Source: Eledone cirrhosa (Eukaryota). From it: 64,000 bases of DNA. Below are positions 4,325 to 62,762 of the stretch, piece by piece. The notes below the pieces were generated by a model, which worked only from the letters and a program-made list of their open reading frames with translations, had not been told where the DNA came from and ran no database searches. The position numbers were made by a program, and so were the translations under genes. The stretch is from contig OZ024751.1 of assembly GCA_964016885.1 (NCBI GenBank), positions 43,586,001-43,650,000 on the forward strand, read 5' to 3'. The first letter of the stretch is position 1; each line of letters starts with the position of its first letter.

Positions 4325-4512
4325 ATATATGTGTATATATATATATATATATATATATATATATATATATATATATATATGCAAAAGTTCTATTTAAAAT
4401 TGTTGGGATACAACAAGTAAATATTTTTTATAACTGATATAAAGCACTCGACAAGTATTTGGAGTAGATATACGATATTAATAAATGGAAACTATATTTA
4501 TAAAACAATATT

Positions 4513-4577
4513 TATTTCATTATACATATTTCAGGGATACCAAATTAAATTATGGTATGCCTTCATCAGACAAAATA
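4513..4577 (-). ncRNA. Type I hammerhead ribozyme, family A (minus-strand arm)
   Basis: Reverse complement of 4769-4833. Confidence 0.8.
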
Positions 4578-4768
4578 CAATATATAACAGTTTTACAAAT
4601 AAGCTTTGACGTACCCCATTAAAATGCAACCATTGTTTTTGGAAGTGTCCTTAACACTATGATTTATTAAAGTAATATAAACAAATCACTATCCGGATGG
4701 CTTCCAAAAACAATGGTTGCATTTTAATAGGGTACATCAAAGCTTATTTGTAAAACTGTTATATATTG

Positions 4769-4833
4769 TATTTTGTCTGATGAAGGCATACCATAATTTA
4801 ATTTGGTATCCCTGAAATATGTATAATGAAATA
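4769..4833 (+). ncRNA. Type I hammerhead ribozyme, family A
   Basis: tattttgt-CTGATGA-aggcatacca..tggtatccct-GAAA-tatgta-TA-atgaaata; 8-bp stem I with two G-U pairs, stem II, near-palindromic stem III, AUA triplet. Confidence 0.8.
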
Positions 4834-4894
4834 AATATGGTTTTATAAATATAGTTTCCATTTATTAATATCGTATATATATATATATTTATTG

Positions 4895-4945
4895 CACCCT
4901 TGCAAGCAGGGAAGAGCGGACGTAAAATGATGATGATGATGATGA
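4895..4945 (+). mobile_element. Solo 3' tail of RTE family 2 / SINE 1
   Basis: cacccttgcaagcagggaagagcggacgtaaaat(gat)n, matching 13033-13075. Confidence 0.8.
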
Positions 4946-5164
4946 TATATATATATGTGTGAGTGTGCATATATATGTATGTATATATATATATATATAT
5001 GTATATGTATGTATGTATGTATACACACTTCAACAGCATTCTAATAAAAGTGTATACCTTTTTGGGGGTGTATGTATGCATATGCATATGTATATATGCA
5101 CATATATATGTATGTATATATATGTGTGTGTGTATATATATATATATAACCACTAAGCCATGAA

Positions 5165-5510
5165 GGCACATGGCTTAGTGGTTAGAGCATTGGGCTTGCA
5201 ATCGAAAGGTTGTGAGTTCAATTCTCAGACTGGGTGATGTGTTGTTTCCTTGAGCAAGACACTTTATTTCACATTGCTCCAGTTTACTCAGCTGTAAAAA
5301 TGAGATGATAGGGATCCCAGTCCCTATCATTCCACTGCAAAGTGGTCGTGGAGGTGCCACGGCAAAAAAGCACCCAGCACTCACTGTAAATAAGGTTGGT
5401 GTTAGGAAGGGCATCCAGCTGTAGAAATCAAGCCAGAATCAGTTCCCGTCCTACCCTTGCAAGCAGGGAAAAGCGGACGTAAAATGAAATGATGATGATG
5501 ATGATGATGA
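5165..5510 (+). mobile_element. tRNA-derived SINE family 1 (CORE-like body, RTE-type tail)
   Basis: A box TGGCTTAGTGG, B box GAGTTCAATTC, CORE-like tgtgttgtttccttgagcaagacacttta, tail shared with RTE family 2, (GAT)n. Confidence 0.9.
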
Positions 5511-5789
5511 TTTATAAAATATATATATATATAAGCATTAAAAAAAAAAGAACCAAACTCTGCAAACAGTTTTCAGTGTAATTTCAATAGTAACATTTCC
5601 CTGCACCACAATCAATCAATGTCCTACAATCTCAGCATGTTTTAATAGACTTCCACACCTACACCTAGGTAGTATTTTAATTTTATTAATGTATGCCATA
5701 CTAAAATGTGACACTGCTCTCTTATTAATAGATTTCAATATTTATTGGGTGTCTAATTCTTTAAAGCATTGGTTTGTTAGTCGGTTGGC

Positions 5790-6330
5790 TGGCTGGTTGA
5801 TTGGTTGGTGTGTTTGTTGTGTGTGTTGGTTGGTTGGTGTGTTTGTTGTGTGTGTTGGTTGGTTGGTGTGTTTGTTGTGTGTGTTGGTTGGTTGGTGTGT
5901 TTGTTGTGTGTGTTGGTTGGTTGGTGTGCTTGTTGTGTGTGTTGGTTGGTGTGTTTGTTGTGTGCGTTGGTTGGTTAGTTGGTGTGTTTGTTGTGTATGT
6001 TGGTTGGTTGGTTGGTGTGTGTGTTGGTTGGTTGGTTGGTGTGTTTGTTGTGTGTGTTGGTTGGTTGATTGGTGTGTTTGTTGTGTGTGTTGGTTGGTTG
6101 GTGTGTTTGTTGTGTGTGTTGGTTGGTTGGTGTGTTTGTTGTGTGTGTTGGTTGGTTGGTGTGCTTGTTGTGTGTGTTGGTTGGTTGGTGTGTTTGTTGT
6201 GTGTTGGTTGGTTGGTGTGTTTGTTGTGTGTGTTGGTTGGTTGGTTGGTGTGGTTGTGTGTGTTGGTTGGTTGATGATGTGTGTTGGTTGGTTGGTTGGT
6301 TGGTGTCTTTGTGCTGTGTGTTGGTTGGTG
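5790..6330. repeat. Compound (GT)/(GTTG) minisatellite, ~31-bp unit
   Basis: Repeating gtgtgttggttggttggtgtgtttgttgt. Confidence 0.9.
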
Positions 6331-59699: not shown

Positions 59700-60540
59700 C
59701 CTTCACTACCATCATTGCTACCACCACCATTGGCACTACCTCCACCACTTCCACTACTACCACAGTCAACACCTTCACCATAATCTCCACCACTACCCCC
59801 ACAATCATCATCACCATCTCCACGATAATTACCACCACCACCACTGTCACCACCATAACACACCACCACCACCATCACCACCACCACTGTCGCTACCATC
59901 ATCATCACCACCACCACTGTCACCATCACCACCATCGCCACAATAATTACCACTACCACCACAATCATCACCATCACTCCCACCATCACCACCATCACCA
60001 TCACCACCACCACAACACACCACCACTGCCACCACCATCACCATCACCACCACCACTGTCGCTACCATCACCACTGTAATGGTGTAAGAAGTATTTCTGA
60101 GTTTCCTTTCTGTTATATTTATAAAGTTGGTTGTTTCTCCTGTTATTCATGTTTGATGGCAGAAAAATAGTTATTTCTGTTAATGTACGGCCTTAAATAG
60201 TATCACCTTGGTGATGGTGGTGGTGGTGATGGTAGCAATGATGATGATGGCAGTGGTGATGGTGGTGGTGGTGGTGATGGTAGCAATGATGATGATGGCA
60301 ATGATAATGGTGATTGTGGTGGTGGTGGTGGTAGCAATGATGATGATGGCAGTGGCAATGATAATGGTGATTGTGGTGGTGGTGGTGGTGGTAGTGATGA
60401 TGGCAGTGGCCATGATAATGGTGATGGTGGTGGTGGTGGTGATAGTAGTGATGGTGGTGGTGGTGGTAGTAGTGATGGTGGTGGTAGTAGTGGTGGTGGC
60501 AATGACAATAGTGGGTAGTAGTGATGTTGATGGAGGTGGT
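59700..60540. repeat. (CAC/CAT) tract followed by a (GTG/ATG) tract
   Basis: 59700-60075 CAC-rich, 60210-60540 GTG-rich. Confidence 0.85.
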
Positions 60541-60650
60541 GATAGATTTTTTTCTGTGGGGAGTCGGGTATAGGACCAAGTTCCCCTAGTGGGTAGGGGG
60601 ACTCGTTTCTAGAACACTACTTGCCTTCAGCCTGTACCTTCCTTCCTTAA

Positions 60651-61063
60651 CCCTTTAGCATTTACATTACTCTATATATATATACTATTGTATTTTTGTG
60701 CTTTATCTTACATAATTATCTGATAATATCGAATCTATGAGATTTTGATATCTATTTTGAGAACGTGGATTGGCAGTATCGGTAGAGGGTCGGACACCGT
60801 GCTTTGACGCATAGAGTTATGGCCCTTGCCATTCTGAGTTCAAATTCCACTGAGGTTAACTTTGCCTTTCATCCTTACGGGGTCGATAAAATAAAGTACC
60901 AGTAATGCACTGGATAATTGCTGGCCTTGTGCTAAAAGTAGAAACAATTATTTATTTTGAGAAAAATATCTTAACATCAGTATGAGTGGCCGGTTATGGA
61001 TGGTTTGAACAGAAAGAAGTGAGAAAATTCTGGCCAGATATGGCCGGTTTAAATGCTAAAGGG
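60651..61063. mobile_element. piggyBac-like MITE with nested SINE
   Basis: TTAA-ccctttagcattta...taaatgctaaaggg-TTAG; 14-bp perfect TIR. Confidence 0.75.
60764..60952 (+). mobile_element. SINE family 2, full length, with 11-bp target-site duplication
   Basis: A and B boxes; tattttgagaa at 60753-60763 and 60953-60963. Confidence 0.9.
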
Positions 61064-62125
61064 TTAGGGTGACAAGATGACCAAATGGTTAAGCTGTTTG
61101 ATACAATGTTTGCAGTGTATGTTCTGCCACCCCAACACACAACTTAACTCGTATGCAACACAGGAAAAACAGACATTAAATGATGATGATGTACATGAAT
61201 GTGTGTATGTTAGTGTGTGTGTTAGTGTTAGTGTGTGTATGTGTGTTCGTATTAGTATGTGTGTGTTTGTGTTAGTGTGTATGTGGATTACAGTGTGTTA
61301 GTGTGTGTGTGACTGCAGTGTTTCTGTTAGTGTGTGTTTGTGGACTGCACTTGTAACTCAAAAGTGCAACAATGTTGTGATGTGTTGCATTGATTACACC
61401 TGAGAATTACACACACACACAAGCCTATGGTATACTCAGCCACTTTGTTACACATTAATATAATAACTAAGTAGACTGCTCAGTCGATATAACAACAGAG
61501 TCATTATATGTTGTTCTCAATGGGAGAGTCCGTCATACACCTTAACTAATTAAGAGAGAAAATCTTCTACAGGTAATTAGTAGAACATGGACAAATAGAT
61601 TATAGACAGATGTTTCAAACGACAAATCAATTCTCACAGTACAGTTTCTTCTTTGCCTTAATTCTTTCGTCTCGTTCAACCTTTTGCATGTTCTACATGG
61701 TTTTAATTAGCAATCCGCTGTAGATAAACTAAACTACAGTGTATTCTACATGTGTAGGTGTGGCTTGTTTGTAAATATGCAAACATACCAACCCACCCAA
61801 ATCACCTACTCTCTCTCTCTCTCTCTCTCTCTCTTTCCCTTTCTCTCTTTTTCTCTCTCATATATATGTGTGTATATATATATATATTTTTTTTTTTCAA
61901 ATTCTTTTAATTTATACATTATCTTCCAACGGCTTTCAACCTCTCTATGTAAAACAATATATCTTCTCTCAGTTATAAAAACTATCTCTTTCTCTCTATC
62001 ACCCATCTCTCCCTCTCCACCTTTACTCTCATCTCCTCCCCTTTTTTCATCCTTTCCACCCCCCCCCCCCCTCTCTAAATAAAATATTTTTCCCAATATC
62101 ACACATCAATCTAAAACTACTTTTC

Positions 62126-62295
62126 ATATGTTGATTTAAAACTGCACTATCCACAAGTGTTTTTTAGCCTTCATATCATGTTCTCCTGTTTTATCTGATG
62201 AAAACACAAATATTATTGCATGATGATGTTTGTTTTTGAAATGCGCATAATAAAATACATGGAACTCCTTTAACCATCTTTTGATCTTATATATT
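62126..62295 (+). mobile_element. Hammerhead element, family D copy 2
   Basis: Nearly identical to the reverse complement of 14930-15095. Confidence 0.85.
62188..62256 (+). ncRNA. Type I hammerhead ribozyme, family D
   Basis: gttttat-CTGATGA-aaacacaaatattatt..gatgatgtttgttttt-GAAA-tgcgca-TA-ataaaat; 7-bp stem I, palindromic ATGCGCAT stem III, predicted cut after 62249. Confidence 0.85.
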
Positions 62296-62372
62296 ATATA
62301 TATATATATATATATGTTTGTATGTAAAATGTAAACAGAAATAACAACACATTCGGTATATATATATATATA

Positions 62373-62533
62373 TAACTGCTCTGTAGAACAACTGATGTTA
62401 TTACATTGAGCTATTTATCTTACTGGTAATAAGGTAGTAATCAATTACTGACCTTCACTGTTTAGGGTTTAAAATATACATAACTATAAAAAGTTTTAGT
62501 ATATACATAACCATAAATAGTATCCTTAATATT
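62373..62533. mobile_element. TA-embedded insert, family C copy 2
   Basis: Homologue of 21824-21987 with the same boundaries. Confidence 0.7.
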
Positions 62534-62560
62534 ATATATATATATATATATATATATATA

Positions 62561-62762
62561 AAACAAAGGAAATGTGGTAAGGAACCAGATGGACCATAAC
62601 GCACCAGAGTACTCAATACTTAGGGTAGTAGAGTGGGAAATAGGAGAAAGTATGACCCCGATGGCAGAGCTCAAGCCATTTCGACGGCTATTTCTGGACT
62701 ATTTAGTCCAGAAATAGCCCTCGAAACGGCTTGAGCTCTGCCATCGGGGTCATACTTTTTCA
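62561..62762 (-). mobile_element. Fold-back element, family B copy 2 (3' half of hammerhead only)
   Basis: Arms ~62647-62701/62704-62758, tail 62561-62646 homologous to 53071-53148. Confidence 0.85.

What the first reader, a model, noticed from the sequence alone, without database searches (positions are those of the whole stretch)
4468..62762. Asymmetric fold-backs: fixed outer end, variable turn point, unpaired tail
Seen: all three A copies and both long B copies are hairpins (arms about 178, 67 and 83 bp for A; 115 and 55 bp for B). The turn point differs between copies, but the inverted arm always ends at the same internal TA-containing site (A: ...aatatcgta; B: ...ggttccta or equivalent). 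That site is about 15-22 nt upstream of the shared motif and leaves a 78-91 bp single-copy tail. Known: Penelope-like insertions often carry an inverted 5' pseudo-LTR and a 3' tail. Inferred: two priming events from opposite strands of a (TA)n target, one at the RNA end and one at a motif-positioned internal TA, joined at variable truncation points. This is not MITE architecture.
Basis: partly seen in the sequence, partly recalled or inferred. Interest (0 to 1): 0.8.

Follow-up and report, generated by a model that had tools for sequence, protein, structure and literature searches.

The report
Twin RNA hairpins set Penelope ends
These lopsided fold-back insertions are likely the leftover ends of Penelope-like jumping genes, laid down in an already described pattern, but in related elements both fixed ends sit a few bases before one of two copies of a conserved small hairpin, which likely tells the copying enzyme where to start and would explain the long-puzzling one-sided tail.

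Summary
All five copies are head-to-head fold-backs in (TA)n with one tailed and one untailed arm; a sixth (D1) was missed. Raw reads of two other samples show the fixed short end and several different inversion joints, so the family's architecture is no assembly artefact. The arms carry hammerhead motifs. 'Inverted pLTR plus one-sided tail' is published for Penelope-like elements (PLEs), and this scan met it before in shark DNA.

New: the shared motif is a bulged hairpin (RCTC-stem-TY-GAGY) found in six window families. It also occurs in Hydra-clade PLEs fetched from metagenomes, where it stands twice (H1, H2; 55-67 nt apart) before the ORF, with covarying stems. Untailed ends stop just before H1 and tailed ends just before H2 (9 of 11 automatically listed termini). 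Most likely each hairpin positions one reverse transcriptase, priming from opposite strands (inferred). No RT was linked to families A or B, and their H2 rests on five reads of A. I found no description of the hairpin pair in the library searched.

The parts
4381..4468 (-). A1 single-copy tail, ending at (TA)n; predicted to be the H1-H2 interval
4446..4465 (-). A1 bulged hairpin H1 (ACTC..TC-GAGT), 7 nt after the short-end site
4469..4645 (-). A1 tailed arm, part shared with the other arm; hammerhead core at 4569 (minus)
4646..4700 (+). A1 spacer = natural 5' extension of the UNTAILED arm; true turn at 4645/4646
   Evidence: joints 4645/4700, 4646/4699 and 4643/4694 have longest shorter sides of 55, 54 and 49 nt, i.e. 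ending exactly at 4646
4701..4873 (+). A1 untailed arm; type-I minimal hammerhead (core 4777, palindromic helix III, predicted cut after 4825); ends at the fixed short end into (TA)n
36674..36739 (-). A2 untailed arm; 2-nt overlap with the tailed arm at the join
   Evidence: orientation from the loose-end consensus behind 4533
36738..36901 (+). A2 tailed arm with H1 at 36817-36836
52429..52581 (-). A3 untailed arm; 30-nt deletion between short direct repeats; reaches about 60-70 nt further 5' than the tailed arm (join approximate)
   Evidence: loose-end consensus behind 4584 matches this extension
52585..52784 (+). A3 tailed arm: hammerhead core 52598, H1 52704-52723, tail 88 nt
52830..52942 (-). 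B1 untailed arm (followed by 13-nt spacer 52943-52955 of unresolved orientation)
52956..53148 (+). B1 tailed arm: hammerhead-like motif with U3-A8 core (52968), GAAA 53029, predicted cut after 53051; H1 53077-53100; tail 80 nt
62561..62710 (-). B2 tailed arm with H1 62611-62634
62710..62761 (+). B2 untailed arm; starts about 3 nt further 5' than the tailed arm (against B1)
21736..21986 (+). D1: sixth fold-back; 10-nt inverted untailed arm 21736-21745, 3' half of a hammerhead (GAAA 21765), H1 21829-21862 (GCTC..TT-GAGC), 169 nt beyond the short end
62375..62532 (+). D2: tail-only copy of D starting at the natural TA stretch before H1 (62378-62411)
11305..11641 (-). E: solo tailed copy of another family, H1 11376-11401, degenerate hammerhead-like motif near 11613
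46866..47078 (-). I: (TA)n-flanked insert with H1 46942-46965
53161..53292 (-). F2 (and related F1 21257-21323, +): same two outer ends, different interior; stretched hairpin halves; possibly non-overlapping arm pairs
   Evidence: orientation of the left part not resolved
49197..49257 (-). Solo untailed B arm ending at the short end into (TA)n

Best explanation
The fold-backs are likely 5'-truncated insertions of (TA)n-targeting Penelope-like retrotransposons, probably of or near the Hydra clade, each likely made by two reverse-transcription starts on opposite strands of the target, with each start likely positioned by one of two copies of a conserved bulged RNA hairpin. Shown in Hydra-clade loci: the order hammerhead - H1 - 55-67 nt - H2 - ATG; untailed ends stop just before H1; tailed ends keep H1 and stop just before H2. 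Inferred: the element's protein, probably as a dimer, binds H1 and H2 on a read-through pLTR-ORF transcript and nicks both strands of (TA)n. It starts one cDNA about 6-9 nt 5' of H2 (tailed arm) and one about 6-9 nt 5' of H1 (untailed arm), usually at a TA that can pair with the target. Both cDNAs stop early at variable points and are joined head-to-head, with 1-2 nt of overlap where this could be read (A2, B2). The hairpin in the DNA is the stretch copied twice; the tail is the H1-H2 interval, copied once. Whether one RNA (with strand displacement) or two sibling RNAs are used is open.
For: Hammerhead motifs in the arms. Among the 40 variant rows shown (122 not shown), the only one inside the core or GAAA is at the free position 7 (about 74-76% of RAD reads). 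Hairpin descriptor: 9 hits in the repeat-masked window, all in (TA)n-flanked inserts; shuffles mean 1.3, max 5 of 200 (written after seeing A, B, D, E, F and I by eye, so post hoc). 16 long ORFs carry RWK/RWR 16 of 16, DKT/DKS 15 of 16 and CxCx5C 15 of 16. 21 loci in 15 families (80% identity) have two hairpins. Upper-stem pairs, not required by the search, form in 49, 39 and 34 of 52 distinct hairpins, in three to five pair types; 0 of 2000 partner shuffles reach this, and a TA sits at -6 in 26 of 51. ORF-interior control: 3 hits in 311,518 nt, two of them in a nested insertion. Termini: 8 of 11 distinct termini in the automatic listing end 0-6 nt before H1 or H2, 9 of 11 once L010 is set against its own copy (binomial about 5e-8 for a 10% target). 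15 of 16 hand-picked termini with a reference do so too. Five raw reads (3+2, two runs) run past A's tail end into a GCTC-type hairpin start 9 nt further on (table 5c). Published Hydra consensi read by eye show the hairpin: once at the 3' end of Hydra-2_Amil and Hydra-2_Ajap, twice at the 5' end of Hydra-1_Ajap. Arms within a copy are 96-100% alike against 89-95% between copies. Arms are non-nested in A1, A3 and B2. The short end also occurs solo and in head-to-tail joints (4527->4483). In vitro, a Poseidon PLE cuts and extends both strands, starts at two internal sites bounding the tail and is modelled as a dimer (PMC11167929).
Against: No RT ORF is linked to A or B. Their first hairpin pair is A-U, not the G-C of all Hydra loci searched, and their tails (80-92 nt; D 169 nt) exceed the Hydra spacing of 55-67 nt. 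A's H2 rests on five reads that could be a tandem neighbour; B's H2 was not seen. A covariance model built from 12 Hydra hairpins ranks five window hairpins among its top 7 hits, but none is significant (E 0.088-1.1); A1 scores E 7.4, and D and I are not listed. Rfam finds no hammerhead in A1 or B1, and B's motif failed my descriptor. L052's 3' copy ends inside the ribozyme, L077 is ambiguous, and L019 holds a tailed+tailed pair. 21 of 43 loci with at least 1100 nt upstream have no hairpin there (not checked one by one for truncation). In vitro, the Poseidon protein showed no strand difference in start site, which by itself does not force asymmetry. No empty site, no biochemistry.
Confidence: 0.6

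Rival explanations
1. The motif acts on DNA: it is the endonuclease's recognition site, and the two ends are cut out of a longer cDNA or transposition intermediate at a fixed distance from each copy.
For: PMC8557442 suggests the tail results from endonuclease-mediated resolution. PMC11167929 reports that the D. virilis endonuclease needs the tail for recognition. The lower stem GCTC/GAGC-ACT is conserved in sequence, as a DNA site would be.
Against: The upper stem covaries in several pair types, which points to a single-stranded fold. In the Poseidon assay, genomic ends coincide with RT start sites on the RNA.
Confidence: 0.15
2. Self-primed fold-back: one tailed cDNA folds on itself and is copied back until it stalls at H1; later central deletions of the palindrome make the spacers.
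For: Arms share private subfamily alleles. A2 and D1 have the untailed arm nested in the tailed one, and A2's join could be a 2-bp, 4-nt-loop snap-back. Self-priming was proposed for PLE inverted junctions (PMC3846280).
Against: In A1, A3 and B2 the untailed arm holds sequence absent from the tailed arm (55, about 60-70 and 3 nt), which needs a second event. Untailed ends occur without any fold-back (49197-49257; L006, L063) and in head-to-tail joints. Joints 4417/4601 and 4456/4587 would leave little or no overlap if head-to-head.
Confidence: 0.14
3. Two independent single-arm insertions into the same (TA)n hot spot, later made alike by arm-to-arm conversion.
For: (TA)n tracts collect several insertions (A3, B1 and F2 lie in a row; L005, L072, L019). 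One low-depth contig (X1 record 4, depth 3.78) joins arms with 25 and 0 differences from A1.
Against: No (TA)n lies at any of the six joins. Both arms are always of the same family. A1's arms keep three unshared changes, so conversion is not complete. Six of six mixed pairs has p 0.007-0.016 if ends were independent.
Confidence: 0.06
4. Assembly or library fold-back artefact.
Against: Arms differ by substitutions and a 30-nt deletion. The short end and six inversion joints recur at the same coordinates in two raw-read runs, away from cut sites. The same structure is in unrelated metagenome contigs (L010, L064).
Confidence: 0.02

Closest known systems
Complex insertions of endonuclease-positive Penelope-like elements: inverted 5'-truncated pLTR plus optional tail (PMC3846280 passages; PMC8557442 passages, Fig. 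2 legend; PMC8969392 passages)
   Same: Head-to-head inverted copy, tail at only one end, 5' truncation, hammerhead near the 3' end, microsatellite targets without readable TSD.
   Different: Tails here are 80-92 nt (D 169) against the published 30-40 nt. No cis-element setting the two ends is described in what I read.
Hydra clade PLEs (PMC8557442 section 11 and Files S1, S2, S7)
   Same: (TA)n target, canonical type-I hammerhead with short palindromic helix III, and the same bulged hairpin after the ribozyme (seen by eye in the consensi and in fetched loci).
   Different: A and B have an A-U first pair and longer tails; no ORF is linked to them. The paper's main text has 0 occurrences of 'stem-loop'.
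PAc, Poseidon element of Anolis, in vitro (PMC11167929, parts 1-2 of 4)
   Same: Two internal RT start sites bounding the tail; both target strands cut and extended; dimer model; ribozyme cleavage dispensable.
   Different: Starts lie inside the ORF in an AC-rich stem loop, not before a duplicated 5'-UTR hairpin. Inverted arms are not explained there. Whether PAc has an equivalent hairpin pair could not be checked (sequence file unreadable).
Minimal hammerheads of metazoan PLEs (PMC4209133, parts 1-2 of 4)
   Same: Palindromic helix III, U3-A8 core variant, pairs of motifs 100-700 bp apart on opposite strands.
   Different: Describes the ribozyme only.
L1 twin priming (recalled, not read)
   Same: Two primers from opposite target strands give an inversion.
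   Different: L1's second start is opportunistic and the two cDNAs hardly overlap; here both starts are fixed and the cDNAs overlap by up to 177 nt.
MITEs / fold-back DNA elements (recalled)
   Same: Short, non-coding, inverted repeats, TA context.
   Different: Inverted repeat is not terminal on one side, length varies at the centre, ribozyme present.

Membership tests
Penelope-like element (EN+) insertion | Type-I (minimal) hammerhead near the 3' end | tested here: met
   A passes the descriptor. B folds in hammerhead topology with a U3-A8 core at -23.9 against -25.5 kcal/mol unconstrained but failed the descriptor. Rfam gave no hit for either. Cleavage untested.
Penelope-like element (EN+) insertion | Fixed 3' ends, variable 5' truncation | tested here: met
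   pile-up of loose ends at 4468, depth falling steeply toward the 5' side (partly shaped by RAD cut sites and subfamily divergence).
Penelope-like element (EN+) insertion | Inverted 5' copy and one-sided tail; partial tandems | tested here: met
   6 of 6 window fold-backs; head-to-tail joints 4527->4483 and 4502->4483/4481.
Penelope-like element (EN+) insertion | ORF with PLE RT and GIY-YIG endonuclease | not testable with these tools
   No genome held; the copies are non-coding ends.
Hydra clade | (TA)n insertion preference | tested here: met
   Shared with Neptune and Naiad, so not diagnostic alone.
Hydra clade | RWK, DKT, CxCx5C protein motifs | not testable with these tools
   Met by the fetched loci, but no protein is tied to A or B.
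Hydra clade | Bulged hairpin after the ribozyme (feature found here, not a published criterion) | tested here: inconclusive
   Present in A, B, D, E, F and I and in Hydra loci; covariance-model scores not significant. Neptune, Nematis and Poseidon not examined, so it may not be clade-specific.
Naiad clade | Lack of canonical hammerhead | tested here: not met
   A has a full motif. No such hairpin seen by eye at the ends of Naiad_Obim and Naiad_Ovul, which may be untailed consensi.
Non-LTR retrozyme | Head-to-tail tandem units each with a hammerhead | tested here: not met
   Window copies are dispersed, inverted and truncated.
MITE | Terminal inverted repeats at both ends, constant length | tested here: not met
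   One repeat ends 78-91 nt inside; lengths 201-493 nt vary at the centre.

The most novel reading that the evidence does not exclude
Hydra-type Penelope-like elements encode their priming geometry in a tandem pair of conserved RNA hairpins upstream of the ORF. Each hairpin loads one subunit of a dimeric RT-endonuclease, so one insertion is primed twice, from both target strands, at two programmed internal sites. The enigmatic tail is the hairpin spacing and the inverted pLTR is the second subunit's product, so tail length and start sites could be reset by moving a 20-30 nt hairpin.
Probability: 0.5. Interest if true: 0.78.

Novelty: new variant of a known kind. Interest (0 to 1): 0.62.

Why it matters
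How Penelope-like elements make inverted pseudo-LTRs and one-sided tails is called unresolved in PMC8557442. PMC11167929 ties the tail to two RT start sites without showing what sets them. A conserved, covarying, duplicated hairpin that predicts both ends across 15 families turns this into a direct experiment: delete, move or repair each hairpin. It also gives curators a rule for true element ends and a marker for non-coding PLE debris in (TA)n-rich genomes, which would otherwise be filed as MITEs or fold-backs. The fold-back architecture alone is ordinary.

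Tried and rejected
No genome is held for the window, so no genome-wide copy census or empty-site comparison was possible. A first unmasked self-BLAST timed out. Whole-window Rfam gave only microsatellite noise among the 150 of 799 rows shown. Rfam on A1 and B1 gave no hammerhead; on L006 it gave Hammerhead_1 below gathering score and no family for the hairpins. An exact A-family pattern found nothing in metagenome contigs, and the RT-motif pattern found nothing in viral contigs. 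No RNA holder was listed, which says nothing on expression. The pile-up of read ends at 4398 was rejected as a third element end because it is an AATT cut site. The cluster at 4475 is read as clipping of an A2-like indel variant. The joints 4645/4700, 4646/4699, 4643/4694 and 4601/4694 were first taken as a shared turn point, then rejected: they show natural continuity of the spacer with the untailed arm. The 80-nt spacing printed for L052/L074 is a regex mis-register; the nested hairpin gives 59 nt. Pfam and PDB searches do not recognise the Hydra ORFs, so clade assignment rests on the published motifs. MAFFT could not align hairpins of unequal loop length; the model was built from 12 of those 46 equal-length rows. 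Literature searches that found no description of the hairpin pair. The library lacks most subscription journals and Repbase reports; the PAc sequence file and its figure-only supplement could not be read, supplement files 1 and 3 of that paper were not opened, and 54 of 59 parts of the PMC8557442 supplement were not read.

Full report
Setting. The window is microsatellite-rich animal-type DNA with RTE-type LINE copies and SINE-like repeats. No genome is held. The organism was not determined.

Observation. Self-alignment confirms five head-to-head inverted repeats with a single-copy extension on one side: A1 (174 of 177 identical), A2 (64 of 66), A3 (82 of 82 plus a 30-nt deletion), B1 (115 of 115) and B2 (46 of 48). 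All are flanked by (TA)n on both sides, and none has (TA)n at the join. Read in the sense of the ribozyme, both arms point outward with their 3' ends: one stops at a fixed short end, the other runs 80-92 nt further. A sixth case, D1, has a 10-nt untailed arm. Arms of one copy are 96-100% alike and arms of different copies 89-95%, so both arms come from the same source.

Raw reads. I laid two contig sets and two raw RAD runs on window:4371-4700. Loose ends pile up at 4468 with (AT)n beyond: 5,698 of 34,347 and 6,539 of 37,021 reads, 44 of 4,366 contigs, and 1 of 81 in another organism. These are reads, not loci, and 570 rows were not shown. Opposite-strand joints 4417/4601, 4456/4587, 4481/4588, 4497/4529, 4501/4512 and 4506/4587 recur in both runs, none at the cut sites; 4478/4512 is in a contig; 14 more joints were not shown, and polarity is not given. 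The 4587 side may be an alignment limit of a divergent subfamily. Joints 4645/4700, 4646/4699 and 4643/4694 have shorter sides ending exactly at 4646, so A1's spacer is the natural 5' continuation of the untailed arm. A1's own junction was not listed. The short end also joins head-to-tail (4527->4483, 4502->4483/4481). The family's architecture is therefore genomic, although the five loci are not individually read-confirmed.

Identity. The A arms hold a type-I minimal hammerhead with palindromic helix III. B holds a U3-A8 variant with a longer helix III that failed my descriptor; Rfam scores neither. Such motifs, the U3-A8 variant and opposite-strand pairs 100-700 bp apart are reported for PLEs (PMC4209133, parts 1-2 of 4). 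The inverted pLTR with a tail on one copy is described in PMC3846280 (8 passages), PMC8557442 (passages, section 11) and PMC8969392 (passages). PMC11167929 (parts 1-2 of 4) shows two internal RT starts bounding the tail, extension of both strands and a modelled dimer. Two earlier notes of this scan describe the same architecture in shark DNA (unchecked). The architecture is known.

The motif. The sequence shared by A and B is a bulged hairpin, RCTC-stem-loop-stem-TY-GAGY, 7-8 nt after the short end. It is also in D, E, F and I, with the first pair changed from A-U to G-C. A descriptor written after seeing these gives 9 hits in the masked window, all in (TA)n-flanked inserts, against 1.3 in shuffles. 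Of 38 complex segments lying between TA runs, 10 carry it. Reading the Hydra consensi in the PMC8557442 supplement by eye (parts 52-53 of 59), I found it after the ribozyme in Hydra-2_Amil and Hydra-2_Ajap, in weaker form in Hydra-1_Crog and Hydra-1_Amil, absent from the short ends of Hydra-1_Obim and Hydra-1_Ajap, and twice at the 5' end of Hydra-1_Ajap.

Independent test. Sixteen long ORFs carry the clade's marks. In 21 loci of 15 families the order is hammerhead, H1, H2, ATG, with 55-67 nt between hairpins (L052/L074 corrected from 80 to 59). Of 43 loci with at least 1100 nt upstream, 16 have two hairpins, 6 one and 21 none. The upper stem, not required by the search, pairs in 49, 39 and 34 of 52 hairpins with several pair types and beats all 2000 shuffles; the fourth pair does not (17 of 52). 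Related sequences inflate such counts. In the automatic listing, 8 of 11 distinct termini end 0-6 nt before H1 or H2, counting TA overlap; L010 joins them when set against its own copy, L077 is ambiguous and L052 ends inside the ribozyme. Tailed ends (L001, L005, L031, L037, L042/L060, L055, the inverted arm of L064, both ends of one L019 insert) precede H2. Untailed ends (L006, L063, L043, the inverted arms of L010 and L057, a solo in L019) precede H1. The hairpin is the most conserved stretch, so these stops are not loss of alignment. For A, five reads pass the tail end into a GCTC-type hairpin start 9 nt on (table 5c), as predicted, though a tandem neighbour is possible. A covariance model from 12 Hydra hairpins puts A3, E, B2, A2 and B1 at ranks 1, 2, 3, 5 and 7 in the window, with non-significant E-values.

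Mechanism. Shown: two fixed ends, each just 5' of a hairpin copy in Hydra loci; same-source arms; non-nested arms in A1, A3 and B2; solo and tandem use of the short end. Inferred: each hairpin positions an RT, likely the two halves of a dimer, which prime from opposite nicks in (TA)n; truncated cDNAs are joined head-to-head; the tail is the H1-H2 interval. Six of six mixed pairs is unlikely for independent ends (p 0.007-0.016), but L019 shows that tailed+tailed occurs. Rivals: a DNA-level endonuclease site (0.15), fold-back with later central deletion (0.14), double insertion with conversion (0.06), artefact (0.02).

Verdict. The fold-back pattern is known. The duplicated hairpin that predicts both ends was not found in nine literature searches of a library that lacks most subscription journals (bioRxiv 10.64898/2026.07.22.740005, parts 1-2 of 5, also read without finding it). 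Membership of A and B in the Hydra clade is likely but unproven. New variant of a known kind; interest 0.62.

Noticed in passing
window 1721-4320 (-), with copies at 13528-14870, 24913-26461, 35991-36612, 48323-48872: RTE-like LINE whose ORF has RVT_1 followed by a PHD finger (Pfam); four copies are 92-96% alike, the one at 48323 about 83-85%.
   Followed up: partly
window 26494-34476: 8-kb satellite of a 22-24-nt unit, a short core plus (TA)n; the core resembles the 3' flank of the hairpin (AGCACTGTT) and gives many weak covariance-model hits. May be chance.
   Followed up: no
window 14938-15093 (-) and 62130-62285 (+): Family C: two copies 156 of 156 identical with the same 5' boundary and a clean hammerhead, no hairpin (probably untailed). 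Its last bases resemble the published cephalopod Naiad 3' ends by eye.
   Followed up: partly
window 21818-21986: D's tail is 169 nt, about three times the Hydra hairpin spacing, with a second TA-rich stretch like the one before H1; possibly a decayed H2. Unexplained.
   Followed up: partly
window 49259-49373 and 55487-55600: About 110-nt element with terminal inverted repeats in TA context; looks like a true MITE, unlike A and B.
   Followed up: no
window 53110-53148 and 62561-62600: B tails end in a short ATG-started open frame, and the first two B1/B2 differences in it are silent; weak hint that the ORF start lies in the tail.
   Followed up: no
X1 record 4: 391-nt contig (depth 3.78) joins two opposite arms with 25 and 0 differences from A1; mixed templates or a library chimera.
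   Followed up: no
L019:126-670: Cluster of Hydra-type ends in one (TA)n beside a 5'-truncated ORF, including a tailed+tailed inverted pair with a partial tandem; counter-example to strict asymmetry.
   Followed up: partly
L003/L004: Full tandem of a Hydra-type element (period 2,427 nt) with an intact 708-aa ORF and both hairpins; a candidate for in vitro work.
   Followed up: partly
window 4436-4475 (-), 36807-36846, 52694-52733: In A the hairpin is predicted to have a lower stem that begins at the short end itself, kept in all three copies despite changes.
   Followed up: partly
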